NCBI GenBank assembly: GCA_012295275.1
Contig: CM022672.1
Span: forward strand, 30,504,001 to 30,568,000
Source of the DNA: Chrysomallon squamiferum
Lineage: Eukaryota > Animalia > Mollusca
Reading direction: 5' to 3'
DNA: 64,000 bases
Shown: piece by piece, positions 6,381 to 35,489 of the stretch
Layout of the letters: each line of letters begins with the position of its first letter
Position numbering within the stretch: position 1 is the stretch's first letter
Position numbers and translations under genes: made by a program
Notes under the pieces: generated by a model
Database searches by the model: none
What the model was told of the DNA's origin: nothing
Seen by the model: the letters and a program-made list of their open reading frames with translations, nothing else

Positions 6381-9214
6381 TTAGCATGTACCAAATAAAC
6401 AAGTTGATTGTTTTGTGTCCCAGACAGTTCCTGGTGCACAAGAAAGCTTGCGAGCCTCACCATTAACACACAGGACAAACTGACGACAAGTTTTTCCAGC
6501 AATGAAGGAAAATCCTACTTTAGGACAGTCATCTGAAAAGGATGATAGTAAGCAATAAATGCCTGTAATAATCATCATCATCAGACCTATGTCAATCACT
6601 GACAAGGATTTTGTTAATATATATTACTAACATCTGCAAATAGAAAATGCTACAGTTTTAATAATCTCAGACTGTTTAATTTATAATTACTTAAGAATAT
6701 TAAAATTATTGTTTAATATTAAGAAAATGAAACAGAACACTCAGAGATGTATGTATGGATGTGTGTACGTATATAATGAAAGTATTAAAACATTTCTGAT
6801 TATGATCTTGTTAGCTATTAAAGTTTTACACTCAGATTTAATTTTTCTATCTCCATTAACTACTAACAACCACAGTTCTGTGTGTTGCAGGGAACATCTT
6901 TCACTTCAGTTGTTTCTCCTTCACATGACTTTCCACCATTTGTAGGAGAAGGATTATCACATGTTCTGCTTCTTGACTGGTTTTTGTATCCTGTTCCACA
7001 CACTTTTGAACATTCAGTAACATTCTTCCATTCCGACCAAGTACTCCAACCACCATCAACTGTTAATAATATAAATATGTGTTTATATGTGACCACTGCA
7101 TTGAAAACAAGTAACATTAAAATGTAGATTAAACCTTTGTTGATCCCCAGTTCAGTCTATTTCGTTATGTATTTCTAGAAACTTAATCATCAAAAATCTT
7201 AATGGTAGTTAAGTGATGGCAAAAATAATAGTTTTTGACTGTCCTATAAGAAAAATTATAATTTAGTTCAAAACATCTGTTTTGAACATATTCAAAAGAC
7301 ACATCACAAATTATCAACTCTTGCAGCTAGTAATATTCTAAACTAAATAATTAATTATTAAAATGTTTTATGCTTATCAACTTTAGACTTCATTTTCTAA
7401 AAAGTGTTGTCTACTGAAAATAGTGGATAAGTATATATTAAATTACTTGGACATGCTTGCAGATTACAGCTGTATGTTTCGTTTTCAATTTTGGATCCAT
7501 AGCACGAATGTCCACCATAGGCAGGCACTGGATTAGTGCAAGTTCTGCTCCTCATTCCCGCACGAAATCCACCTCCACAAGTTTTGCTGCATTCATCGTA
7601 TGACCAATCTGACCAAGATGCCCACCCACCATCCACTGTAAAATAAAGAGTATGTTAGAATTTACGAGTGAAGAATCAGATGAAGCCAAGAAAAGACTAT
7701 TCTGTTGACAGATTATTTTAGGGTCATTTATTTAATTACTTATATATTTACACGGATTCTTATGTACTAATTCATATATGAGCTTGCCTACTTATATCTT
7801 ATTAATTCATTTAAATACTTATGTACAAAATTAATGCTTAGATACTTACGTAGATATATATTTATTTACTATCATATCTATTTGTCCACTTACATATCTA
7901 TACACTAATATATACTTTTTCTAGGTATTTCCTTATATTCATAATCACAAATTTATTTATTTGCTTTTGTAGATGCATGCTTTCAGATTTACATACATAC
8001 TTGCATACGTATATGTATGTATATATATATATATATATATATATATATATATTCCAACTGAAACATTTTCTAACATACACATAGATAGATATGAATATTA
8101 ATATATATATATATATATATATATATATATGCACACACACAAGACATATACTTGTAGATACATCTATACTCGTTTATTTATTATGAGACAGAAATCTTAC
8201 AATTTATATGAGGTTTTCAAAGAATGTGGCTCTCAATATTAACCAAGGACATGCGATATATAATTTTTATATTACTGACATTAATATAACACTCACCTCC
8301 ACATTTGTGTATATTGCAAGTCACTTTCCGGGTCTCGACACTGTACCCCTGACAGTAACTTCCACCATGTTGAGGTAATGGATTGTTGCACGACCTAGTC
8401 CTGTCCTGCTGTTTGATTCCATATCCACATGACCTAGAACAGCCACTGGTGTCAACCCAGGAAGACCAGCTGTTCCAGCCACCATCAACTAATCATAAAT
8501 AGGATATTGAAGTTTATAATAAATGTAAATTTCGCCTCATATTATGTCTTAGAAAGTAAGAACTTCAATTTACCCACTGGGCTATTTCCCATTTTTGCAA
8601 GTACCTCATGACGTACTTATCTAATACACTGGTATGTGTTTTTCTAACAACAAAAATGTAAAGCATTTAAAGGATTATTCATGGTTATTCAGTGAAAACT
8701 GGTGACTGAATATTTTCTGTTCTTTCCTTCTTCTTTTTTTTATCTTCAACTGACAAAAAATAAATGGTAGACATTAAATAAAAGTTAAGTCTACTGGATT
8801 TTCCTCCTAAAAAAGCACAACTAAATGCAACTATCAAATACCACTGTCTTAAGTAAAACAAGAGTTGATTAATGCTATATATTTGAAGATTTTCCAAGAC
8901 TATATCATATTTTCTAGAGAAGGTAGAGTAAAGATAAACCATTTACAGTTTATCAGATTTGTAATTTTTTTATTAGTTTGTGAAAAACGGATGTTAATGA
9001 ATTGTGAAGAAGCAAGATACTCAAGCAAGTTCTCAGAAATTTGAAAGTTAGAACAAAAGGCTAATATTGTTGAGTTTTACTTACTTTCAGATGCTGGTCT
9101 ACAACCGGGTTATGTTGTTGAGTTATACTTACTAGGATGCTTTCGCCCCCAAAACCAGACGGCTTCAGTACAGACCACTAATACACATACGATTAACAGA
9201 GTAAATAGTTTCAT
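6381..9214 (-). CDS. Copy B: secreted protein with 3 TSRs and a C-terminal chitin-binding (peritrophin-A/CBM14-like) domain, 268 aa
   Basis: Exons 9133-9214 ([27 protein letters not shown]), 8297-8488, 7447-7635, 6868-7059 and 6381-6532. All introns are GT-AG, phase 1, and the 807 nt read open. TSRs show WxxWxxW, CSxxCG and RxRxC. The last exon has C-x13-C-x5-C-x9-C-x12-C-x4-C. AATAAA lies near 6246-6251 on the minus strand. Confidence 0.9.
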
Positions 9215-9467
9215 CTATGAAAAAAGCAGAAAGAAAATATAGAGACAAACAGATACTCACAGACATATATAAAGATGAAATCTGGTCACAAAAAGAAATG
9301 CAACAGCCTTTGAAATCTCTTCCAACATCTTTTAAAAAAAGGATAAACATAGCCACCCCAAATAAATAAAAAATAAAAATAAATTAATGAAAATAAATTA
9401 TTAAAAATATTAAACAAAGAACGAAAGCAAAATATTTTTTTTTAGCTAAAAGTAAAGTATAATTTAC

Positions 9468-32727: not shown

Positions 32728-35489
32728 TTAGCATGTACCAACTGAACATGTTGATTTTTTTGTGTCCCAGACAGATCCTGGTGGACAAACAAGCTCGTAA
32801 ACCACACCATGGATACACTGGACGAAATGACGACAAGTCTTTCCAGCCATGAGGACAACTCCTACTTTAGGACAGTCATCTGAAAAGGATGATGGTCAGC
32901 AATAAATGCCTGTAATAATCATCATCATCAGACCTATGTCAATCACTGACAAACATTTTGTTAATATATGTTATTAACATCTGCAAATAGAAAATGCTAC
33001 AATTTTAATAATCTCGGACTGTTTAATTTATAATTACTAAAGAATATTAAAATTATTGTTTAATATTAAGAAAATGAAACAGAACACTCAGGGATGTATG
33101 CATGGATGTGTGTACGTATATAATGAAATTATTAAAACATTTCTGATTATAATCTTGTTAGCTATTAAAGTTTTACACTCAGATTTAATTTTTCTATCTC
33201 CATTAACTACTAACAACCACAGTTCTGTGTGTTACAGGGAACATCTTTCACTTCAGTTGTTTCTCCTTCACATGACTTTCCACCATTTTTTGGAGCAGGA
33301 TTGTCACATGTTCTGCTTCTTGACTGCTTTTTGTATCCTGTTCCACACACTTTTGAACATTCAGTAACATTCTTCCATTCCGACCAAGTACTCCAACCAC
33401 CATCAACTGTTAATAATATAAATATGTGTTTATATGTGACCACTGCATTGAAAACAAGTAACATTAAAATGTAGATTAAACCTTTGTTGATCCCCAGATC
33501 AGTCTATTTCGTTATGTATTTCTAGAAACTTAATCATCAAAAATCTTAATGGTAGTTAAGTGATGGCAAAAATAATAGTTTGACTTTAACTGTCCTATAA
33601 GAAAAATTATAATTTAGTTTCAAAACATCTGTTTTGAAGATATTCAAAAGACACATCACAAATTATCAACTCTTGCAGCTAGTAATATTCTAAACTAAAT
33701 AATTAATTATTAAAATGTTTTATGCTTTATGAACTTCAACACTTCATTTTCTAAAAAGTGCTGTCTACTGAAAATAGTGGATAAGTCTATATTAAATTAC
33801 TTGGACATGGTTGCAGATTACAGCTGTATGTTTCGTTTTCAGTTTTGGATCCATAGCACGAATGTCCACCATAGGCAGGCACTGGATTAGTGCAAGTTCT
33901 GCTCCTGATTCCCGCACGTTTTCCACCTCCACAAGTTTTGCTGCATTCATCGTATGACCAATCTGACCAAGATGTCCACCCACCAGCCACTGCAAAATAA
34001 AGAGTATGTTAGAATTTACGAGTGAAGAATCAGATGAAGCCAAGAAAAGACTATTCTGTTGACAGATTATTTTAGGGTCATTTATTTAATTACTTATATA
34101 TTTACACTGAATCTTATGTACTAATTCATATATGAGCTTGCCTACTTATATCTTATTAATTCATTTATATACTTATGTAATAAATTAATCCTTAGATACT
34201 TACGTAGATATATATTTATTTACTATCATATCTTTTTGTCCACTTACATATCTATACACTAATATAAACCTTTAGTAGGTATTTCCTTATATTCATAATC
34301 ACAAATTTATTTATTTGCTTTTGTACATGCTTACTTTCAGATTTACATATATACTTGCATACGTATATGTATATATATATATATTCCAACTAAAACGTTT
34401 TCTAATACACCCATAGGTGTGCAAATTAATAGAATATTAATGTAGAGACACCTGTACTCGTTTATTTATTATGAGACAGAAAATTAAAATTTATATGAGG
34501 TTTTCGAAGAATGTGGCCTTCAAAATTAACCAAGGACATGCGCTATATAATTTTTATATTACTGACATTAATATAACACTCACCTCCACATCTGTGTATA
34601 TTGCAAATCACTTTCCGTGTCTCGAAACTGGACCCCTTACAGTAACTTCCACCATGTTGAGGTAATGGATTTGTACACGATCTAGTCCTGTCCTGCTGTT
34701 TGATTCCAGATCCACATGGCCTAGAACAGTCACTGGTGTCAACCCAGGAAGACCAGCTGCTCCAGCCACCATTAACTAATCATAAATAAGATATTCAAGT
34801 TGATAACAAATGTAAATTTCGCCTCATATTATGTCGTAGGAAGTAAGAACTTCAATTTGCCCACTGCGCTATTTCCCATTTCTGCAGCTACCTCATGACG
34901 TATTTATCAAATACACTGGTATGTGTTTTTCTAACAACAAAAATGTAAAGCATTTAAACGATTATTCATGGTTATTCAGTGAAAAGTGGTGACTGAAGTA
35001 TTTTCTGTTCTTTCCTTCTACTTTTTTTTTTATCTTCAACTGACAAAAAATAAATGGCAGACATTAAACAAAAGTTCAATATACTGGATTTTCCTCCTAA
35101 AAAAGCACAACTAAATGCAACTATTAAATAAAACAAGAGTTGATTAATGCTATATATTTGAAGATTTTTCCAAGACTATATCATATTTTCTAGAGAAGCT
35201 AAAGTAAAGACAAACCATTTACAGTTTATCAGATTTGTAAATTTTTTATTAGTTTGTGAAAAACTGATGTTAATAAATTCTGAAGCAGCAAGATACTCAA
35301 ACAAGTTCTCAGAAATTTGAAAATTACAACAAAAGACTAATATTGTTGAGTTTTACGTACTTTCAGATTCTGGTCTACAACCGGTTATGTTGTTGGGTTA
35401 TACTTACTAGGATGCTTTCGCCCCCAAATCCACCCGGCTTCAGTAAAGACCAATAATACACATACGATTAACAGAGTAAATAGTTTCAT
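32728..35489 (-). CDS. Copy D: secreted protein with 3 TSRs and a chitin-binding domain, 268 aa
   Basis: Exons 35408-35489 ([27 protein letters not shown]), 34584-34775, 33801-33989, 33215-33406 and 32728-32879 ([49 protein letters not shown]). All phase 1 and open. Confidence 0.9.

What the first reader, a model, noticed from the sequence alone, without database searches (positions are those of the whole stretch)
6381..32879. Chitin-binding exon diverges far faster than its neighbouring intron and TSR exon
Hand comparison of B and D: the CBD exon (6381-6532 vs 32728-32879) has about 25 differences in 152 nt and changes 18 of 49 residues, with only 3 purely synonymous codon changes and all six Cys fixed. 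The adjacent 335-nt intron has about 13 differences and the adjacent TSR exon changes 3 of 64 residues. An exon diverging more than its intron, mostly by replacement, suggests positive selection on a binding surface. Patchy gene conversion is the alternative explanation.
Basis: partly seen in the sequence, partly recalled or inferred. Interest (0 to 1): 0.78.

Follow-up and report, generated by a model that had tools for sequence, protein, structure and literature searches.

The report
Fast-diversifying chitin-domain tip on tandem genes
In a row of duplicated animal genes predicted to encode secreted proteins, the chitin-binding-type tip differs far more between copies than the neighbouring DNA does, and two abalone copies show the same pattern, likely because selection favours different binding tips while gene conversion blends the rest.

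Summary
The window holds six tandem genes: signal peptide, 2-16 thrombospondin (TSR) exons, one terminal CBM14 exon. Conversion-like mosaicism is real: D turns from B-like to F-like near the exon, C and E share a near-identical exon, and one public run carries a B/D-like mosaic exon. It does not remove the replacement excess: about 30 replacements on B/D/F branches against 9.6 expected from the flanks; joint model p=3e-4, or 0.003 if B's exon was imported. Exon-only tests are marginal (p 0.006-0.06), and a no-selection model with all B/D/F exon branches 3.5 times older fits as well (p 0.13). Independent support: two abalone proteins of the same architecture differ at 11 of 48 CBM14 residues but 2 of 125 TSR residues. 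Changes concentrate in residues 7-30, outside the canonical chitin pocket, which is itself degenerate; chitin binding is untested. Verdict: likely diversifying selection plus conversion in an unstudied mollusc-type family.

The parts
6381..6532 (-). Gene B terminal CBM14 exon (49 codons + stop)
   Evidence: Pfam PF01607 39.3 bits vs cut-off 22.1; AG acceptor, stop, AATAAA 28 nt downstream
6533..6867 (-). Gene B intron 4 (335 nt)
   Evidence: GT..AG; 13 of 335 differences from D
6868..7059 (-). Gene B TSR exon, type 3
   Evidence: PF00090; boundaries
7447..7635 (-). Gene B TSR exon, type 2
   Evidence: PF00090; boundaries
8297..8488 (-). Gene B TSR exon, type 1
   Evidence: PF00090; boundaries
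9133..9214 (-). Gene B first coding exon: hydrophobic signal-like peptide plus short Trp-rich peptide
   Evidence: spliced model 268 aa, no internal stop; signal peptide judged by eye, no predictor run
16265..16416 (-). Gene C CBM14 exon, closest to the abalone homologue; 2 nt from E
16748..26786 (-). Gene C: signal exon 26690-26786 and 16 TSR exons (14 intact; 24859-25051 and 23024-23216 frameshifted)
   Evidence: 978-aa open model if the two broken exons are skipped
32728..32879 (-). Gene D CBM14 exon
   Evidence: PF01607 36.2 bits
32880..35489 (-). Gene D intron 4, TSR exons 33215-33406, 33801-33989, 34584-34775, signal exon 35408-35489; B-like upstream, F-like from the end of intron 4
   Evidence: 268 aa, open
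42208..44715 (-). Gene E, likely pseudogene (stops and frameshift in TSR1, stop in TSR3) with an intact CBM14 exon at 42208-42359
55994..57988 (-). Gene F: signal exon, two TSR exons (TSR3 deleted), CBM14 exon 55994-56145
   Evidence: 204 aa, open
1..1046 (-). Gene A, partial: signal exon 920-1046 and first TSR exon; the rest lies left of the window

Best explanation
The window is a tandem array of genes for predicted secreted proteins (signal peptide, a stalk of TSR domains, one terminal CBM14 domain) in which selection has likely driven and kept amino-acid differences in the CBM14 exon of the B/D/F subfamily while gene conversion likely shuffles and homogenises the surrounding DNA. Shown: the gene structure, the replacement excess on the B, D, F and D/F-stem branches, mosaic ancestry along D and inside one exon variant, and the same exon-limited divergence in two abalone proteins. 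Inferred: that the cause is selection; that the target is the N-terminal sheet (residues 7-30) acting as a variable binding face; that the ligand is a changing one (microbial or dietary glycan, polyphenol or protein at a body surface) rather than plain chitin. I put a defence or mucosal recognition role at about 45%, a matrix or adhesive role at about 30%. C/E keep the more ancestral tip and show no excess.
For: In the B/D/F triplet B is the odd one out at 19 of 152 exon sites (12.5%) vs 60 of 2132 (1.6-4.3%) in nine other segments, both flanks included, p=4e-7. Parsimony: about 30 replacement and 5.7 silent changes on B/D/F branches vs 9.6 and 3.1 expected from flank branch lengths (p=1e-7 and 0.10). 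Joint flank+codon likelihood: M2a over M1a 2dlnL=16.4, p=3e-4, omega about 4 on half the codons; still p=0.003 with B's exon branch free. Exon alone: M8 vs M8a p=0.006-0.013, M1a vs M2a p=0.045-0.063. D vs F, independent of B: 10 of 107 replacement sites vs 8 of 236 flank sites, p=0.024. Counting each codon once, 18 of 49 still exceeds a 9.5% neutral distance, p=0.003. Several codons carry three or four residues (8, 9, 10, 17, 28, 30, 41, 46). A loose end in runs X2/X6 reads in frame as a further variant with F18, V19, C21, G24 kept and new residues at 20, 22, 23, 26, 27 (hand reading). Abalone P0166 vs P0167: 11 of 48 CBM14 vs 2 of 125 TSR residues, p=1.5e-5; 8 of its 11 variable sites are variable here too, p=0.07. 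A narrow divergence peak between converting duplicates is a published signature of selection (PMC3924837, passages).
Against: Only five exons with full DNA. Pairwise dN>dS is not significant for any of 10 pairs (best p=0.07). A model without positive selection but with all B/D/F exon branches 3.5 times longer than the flanks fits equally (AIC 2837.9 vs 2837.8-2839.7; LRT p=0.13); the silent count 5.7 lies between 3.1 and 11.1 and rejects neither. Against the deepest (between-subfamily) distance the B-D excess is p=0.015-0.12. B vs C shows no excess (17 of 107 vs 51 of 389, p=0.28). The X7 variant differs from B at 11 of 142 exon vs 7 of 112 flank sites, no excess (p=0.81). TSR1 and TSR2 give similar marginal site tests (p 0.016-0.22), which fits general relaxation in an array with broken copies. 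Conversion can mimic positive selection (PMC3924837, passage). The abalone pair has no DNA here, so no dN/dS. No expression or binding data.
Confidence: 0.7

Rival explanations
1. Relaxed constraint plus patchy conversion: only Cys and a few core residues are held, the rest drifts, and the exon looks fast because its flanks were homogenised more recently in all B/D/F lineages.
For: M1a with a 3.5-fold exon multiplier fits as well as M2a. Mosaicism shown for D (p=0.001 on non-coding sites), C/E (2 of 152 vs 35 of 375, p=5e-4) and the X7 variant. One pseudogene and broken exons in the array. B/D/F have lost residues kept by C/E and abalone.
Against: Tracts would have to spare the same 152 nt on both sides on four branches, and spare the same domain in abalone; no selective reason is offered. 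Silent share 5.7 of 36 is below the 0.32 expected if Cys and core are fixed (p=0.03; p=0.10-0.18 under laxer assumptions). No stop, frameshift or Cys loss in 5 of 5 exons.
Confidence: 0.2
2. B alone received its exon by an exon-sized conversion from a distant, unseen paralogue.
For: B is almost equidistant from D, F, C and E in the exon (21-29 of 152). The C/E tract matches the exon closely. At least one unsampled variant exists.
Against: Rejected against M2a (p=0.003); B multiplier not needed under M2a (p=0.58). D, F and the D/F stem are also accelerated. One of B's two private silent changes (6465) is polymorphic.
Confidence: 0.06
3. Mutational or technical artefact: a local hot spot, doublet mutations or an assembly error.
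For: Four codons differ at adjacent positions (8, 27, 29, 41), which can inflate codon models (recalled). Exon GC 43-47% vs about 25% in flanks.
Against: B exon recovered in contigs of three studies. Per-codon counts keep the excess. Base composition is in the joint model. Only 1-3 CpG per exon. C/E exons in the same context barely differ. Intermediates exist for codons 8 and 27.
Confidence: 0.04

Closest known systems
Haliotis asinina 'properdin-like' XP_067660815.1 / XP_067660176.1 (P0166, P0167) and Pomacea canaliculata XP_025114067.1 / PVD22559.1
   Same: Signal peptide + TSRs + terminal CBM14; 20-21 of 45 identical to the C/E tip; the two abalone copies also diverge at the tip and just after the signal peptide.
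   Different: The abalone tip has four Cys, lacking the pair matching C15 and C49, and keeps P/L/F at the pocket; the names are automatic; no study of them was found.
CBM14 / peritrophin-A domains (CHIT1 ChBD, tachycitin, Der p 23, Aplysia EHEP)
   Same: Pfam above cut-off for 5 of 5 exons; the top 12 Foldseek ranks are CBM14-type structures, TM 0.54-0.71, though none at E<=0.001.
   Different: Positions matching CHIT1 Pro451/Leu454/Trp465 read P or A / T or S / F, V or L. EHEP and Der p 23 are reported not to bind chitin (PMC10619976, passage), so the fold does not fix the ligand.
Divergence peaks between converting duplicates (red/green opsin exon 5, RHD/RHCE)
   Same: One exon divergent between homogenised flanks (PMC3924837, passages).
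   Different: Here six or more copies with exon shuffling and many variable sites, not two copies with a few known functional sites.
Amphioxus VCBPs
   Same: [quoted passage not shown]
   Different: There the hyper-polymorphic part is the Ig V domain; here there is no Ig domain and the CBM14 itself is the variable part.
Tetraopes peritrophin-1-like expansion
   Same: Duplicated peritrophin-A genes with relaxed then positive selection (PMC13001012, passages).
   Different: Multi-CBM insect gut proteins without TSRs; gene-level, not exon-limited signal.

Membership tests
CBM14 (peritrophin-A) | Profile match above Pfam cut-off | tested here: met
   35.8-39.3 bits vs 22.1, 5 of 5 exons
CBM14 (peritrophin-A) | Six Cys in family spacing | tested here: met
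   C2, C15, C21, C31, C44, C49 invariant; C31-C44 has the spacing of CHIT1 Cys450-Cys463
CBM14 (peritrophin-A) | Small beta-sheet plus hairpin fold | tested here: met
   AF2 pLDDT 72, five strands; best Foldseek hits are CBM14 structures, E 0.02-0.8; moderate-confidence model
CHIT1-type chitin-binding CBM14 | Pro451, Leu454, Trp465 pocket | tested here: not met
   By Cys offset: position 32 P (A in B), 35 T or S, 46 F, V or L; no copy has L or W. Other CBM14s use other residues.
CHIT1-type chitin-binding CBM14 | Binds chitin | not testable with these tools
   Needs a binding assay
Thrombospondin type 1 repeat | PF00090 match, WxxW motif, six Cys | tested here: met
   3 of 3 B exons above cut-off; phase 1-1 exons
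Properdin | TSR-only chain of about seven repeats, no CBM14 (recalled) | tested here: not met
   Terminal CBM14 and 2-16 TSRs; only a weak CFP hit (E=0.006, below cut-off)
VCBP | Two Ig V domains before the CBD | tested here: not met
   Exons between signal and CBD are all TSR
Gene under diversifying selection | Site class with omega>1 on the exon alone | tested here: inconclusive
   p=0.006-0.063 by model, five sequences, recombination present
Gene under diversifying selection | Replacement rate above linked neutral rate | tested here: met
   30 vs 9.6 expected, p=1e-7; holds only if flanks share the exon's history
Gene under diversifying selection | Genes are expressed | not testable with these tools
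   No RNA run was available to lay

The most novel reading that the evidence does not exclude
SP-(TSR)n-CBM14 genes are an unrecognised, mollusc-wide family of diversifying recognition proteins: a TSR stalk whose length is tuned by phase-1 exon shuffling (2 to 14 intact repeats) carries a CBM14 tip that has turned from chitin to variable ligands, with a hypervariable sheet (residues 7-30) recombined against the hevein-like hairpin by conversion inside the exon, repeatedly in separate lineages.
Probability: 0.25. Interest if true: 0.75.

Novelty: new variant of a known kind. Interest (0 to 1): 0.5.

Why it matters
CBM14 domains are usually read as chitin anchors. A family in which the CBM14 itself is the diversifying part, in two separate lineages, would be a small, easily expressed set of natural binding variants and a candidate invertebrate recognition family. 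It also gives a compact case of selection against conversion in a tandem array. The evolutionary pattern itself is of a known kind, and the ligand is unknown.

Tried and rejected
No whole genome was held, so gene A's tip and other paralogues could not be read. No close protein homologue of the tip: none at E<=1e-8 among 378 longer candidates, no candidate at near length; 0 of 150 listed representatives carry a TSR motif, best tip identity 51%. The organism was therefore not identified; 'mollusc-type' rests only on architecture (3 of 16 TSR hits carry both domains, all molluscs). No RNA holder listed: no evidence either way. B-type contigs were not seen across the exon in X2 and X4: a hole proves nothing. 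X10 (other organism) laid only 2 short pieces. The protein atlas gave no answer. No earlier scan findings. Solvent exposure could not be computed (no model coordinates). GENECONV, PAML and HyPhy were not available; my own codon-model script was used without a simulated null. Paper searches (listings only) showed no study of this architecture; PMC11291548 had none of my five terms; PMC12817120, PMC13425148, PMC12690972 (passages) were not about it. One search used 21 of 72 for the X7 variant vs D; the right hand count is 20 of 72, rerun. No tRNA genes.
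Full report
WHAT IS THERE. The window is AT-rich eukaryotic DNA (GC about 30%) with long internal repeats. On the minus strand lie six tandem genes, A to F. Each has a first coding exon with a hydrophobic signal-like peptide and a short Trp-rich stretch, then phase 1-1 TSR exons of three types, then one terminal exon matching Pfam CBM_14 above cut-off (5 of 5; A's lies outside the window). Spliced models of B and D (268 aa, three TSRs) and F (204 aa, two TSRs) are open with canonical splice sites and AATAAA 28 nt after the stop. 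C has 16 TSR exons, two frameshifted; it is open (978 aa) only if those are skipped. E has stops and a frameshift. No RNA run was available, so expression is unknown.

THE OBSERVATION. Confirmed to the digit: 25 of 152 nt, 18 replacement and 3 silent codons, 13 of 335 in the intron, 3 residues in TSR3. B-D non-coding segments differ by 2-7% everywhere. The exon excess is p=5e-6 against the intron. B-type exon contigs with 0-2 differences were seen in 4 of 7 runs laid, from three studies; the differences are one silent site (6465) and one flank site (6375). So the exon is real, and one of B's two private silent changes is a polymorphism.

THE CONTROL WAS FLATTERING. TSR3 is the most constrained exon (omega 0.34-0.46 on 7 of 14 copies, no site class above 1). 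TSR1 (5 copies) has omega about 1.0 and TSR2 (6 copies) 1.6-1.8, with site tests at p=0.016-0.22 by codon-frequency model. But the TSR exons do not outrun their introns (triplet variable sites: TSR1 32 of 192 and TSR2 13 of 189 beside 73 of 576 in intron 2), whereas the CBM14 exon has 32 of 152 beside 6 of 92 and 11 of 141 in its flanks.

CONVERSION IS REAL HERE. Non-coding DNA splits the array into B/D/F and A/C/E. Upstream, F is the odd one of the triplet (122 sites vs 37 for B); next to the exon it is B (9 vs 4), p=0.001: D is B-like upstream and F-like downstream. C and E differ at 2 of 152 exon sites but 35 of 375 flank sites (p=5e-4), and the low-divergence tract (16429-16256) matches the exon; purifying selection before E broke is not excluded (silent sites alone p=0.23). 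Run X7 holds, at about half depth beside a B contig, a variant with 18 differences from B (record 20). By hand it shares B's private residues in codons 7-30 and D's states at 35, 46 and 6380; against D it differs at 20 of 72 nt in codons 7-30 and 2 of 57 in codons 31-49 (p=2.5e-4). B-like, private and D-like letters lie within 24 nt, so one 31-letter word spans the junction. Whether it is an allele or a further paralogue is open.

DOES CONVERSION EXPLAIN THE EXCESS? Pairwise dN/dS is 1.2-2.2 for 9 of 10 pairs (0.35 for C-E), none significant. On the exon alone M1a vs M2a gives p=0.045-0.063 and M8a vs M8 p=0.006-0.013 (own script). I then fitted flanks and codons together. If the exon shares its flanks' history (C/E tips free), positive selection wins (p=3e-4; omega about 4 on 52% of codons). 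If B's exon may be an import, it still wins (p=0.003). If all four B/D/F exon branches may be longer, a neutral model with a 3.5-fold multiplier fits as well (p=0.13). Parsimony gives about 30 replacements and 5.7 silent changes on those branches; flanks predict 9.6 and 3.1, the 3.5-fold model predicts 11.1 silent. The silent count is intermediate. That is what selection resisting conversion would give (PMC3924837, passages on the opsin exon 5 peak), but it does not reject the neutral model; the same review warns that conversion can mimic selection. Against my reading: B vs C shows no excess over flanks (p=0.28), nor does the X7 variant vs B (p=0.81).

AN INDEPENDENT REPEAT. A TSR3 search returned 16 proteins of 29 candidates; three carry both TSP_1 and CBM_14, all from molluscs. 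Haliotis asinina P0166 has the same layout as F and is 20 of 45 identical to the C/E tip. Its cluster partner P0167 (another accession, contig of the same length) differs at 11 of 48 tip residues and 2 of 125 TSR residues (p=1.5e-5), and also just after the signal peptide, which varies here too. Eight of the 11 sites map to positions variable in this array (p=0.07; 7 of 8 in the well-aligned part, p=0.04). Random tracts would not be expected to spare the same domain in two lineages. This is protein-level only, and the two records could be alleles or gene-model variants.

WHERE THE CHANGES FALL. The AF2 model (pLDDT 72) has strands 5-8, 17-22, 25-30, 35-38, 43-46 and matches CBM14 structures. 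31 of 44 parsimony steps in codons 7-49 fall in 7-30 (p=0.03; boundary chosen after looking). In human chitotriosidase the chitin pocket lies between Cys450 and Trp465, with Pro451, Leu454 and Trp465 most important (PMC5459812, passages). By Cys offset these are positions 32, 35, 46: C/E have P, T, F; B has A, T, F; D has P, S, V; F has P, S, L; abalone keeps P, L, F. So 'chitin-binding' is a domain name here, not a tested activity. A molluscan CBM14 protein, EHEP, binds polyphenol and not chitin (PMC10619976, passages).

MECHANISM. Shown: array, mosaicism, replacement excess on B/D/F, the abalone repeat. Inferred: tandem duplication and unequal crossing over change gene and TSR number; conversion homogenises flanks and recombines half-exons; selection favours new residues on the tip in B/D/F while C/E stay near the ancestral tip (confidence 0.7). 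The ligand is inferred to be variable and met at a body surface; a matrix or adhesive role remains possible, since TSR and chitin-domain proteins occur in shells and glues (PMC12817120, PMC13425148, passages).

NOVELTY. The pattern is of a known kind. The variant is that the CBM14 itself is the variable part, on a TSR stalk. Five searches (listings) showed no study of this architecture; the library lacks most subscription papers, and no supplements were read. Interest 0.5.

Noticed in passing
920-1046, 9133-9214, 26690-26786, 35408-35489, 44607-44715, 57907-57988 (-): The peptide after the predicted signal sequence is Trp-rich, often Arg-rich, and varies in length and sequence among all six genes; B vs D differ at 5 nt in 4 codons, all replacements. 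The abalone pair also differs there.
   Followed up: partly
7447-7635, 33801-33989, 56557-56745 (-): TSR2 exons of B, D, F differ at 13 sites, almost all replacements (dS 0-0.01); site test p=0.016-0.17.
   Followed up: partly
16256-16429 vs 42199-42372: C and the likely pseudogene E share a near-identical CBM14 exon (2 of 152) inside flanks 8-17% apart.
   Followed up: partly
19350-22275: Recent internal duplication of a three-exon TSR3 unit in gene C (30 differences in 1460 nt).
   Followed up: no
23024-23216, 24859-25051: Two frameshifted TSR1-type exons with intact splice sites inside gene C; C is a pseudogene unless they are skipped.
   Followed up: partly
46231-47864 (-): Broken pogo/Tigger-type transposase (HTH_Tnp_Tc5 and DDE_1) between genes F and E; related pieces near 23900-24250 and 13900-14250 were not checked.
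   Followed up: no
28641-29700: About 1 kb inverted relative to the other repeat units, upstream of gene C.
   Followed up: no
30824-31023: 200-N scaffold gap between genes D and C, so copy number and order across it are uncertain.
   Followed up: no
runs X2 and X6, behind 6450: A further CBM14 variant not in the window, in frame, with new residues at positions 20, 22, 23, 26, 27.
   Followed up: partly
56240-56430: Gene F lacks TSR3 and most of introns 3 and 4 by deletion, giving an open two-TSR protein like the abalone one; its TSR1 has an extra Cys.
   Followed up: partly
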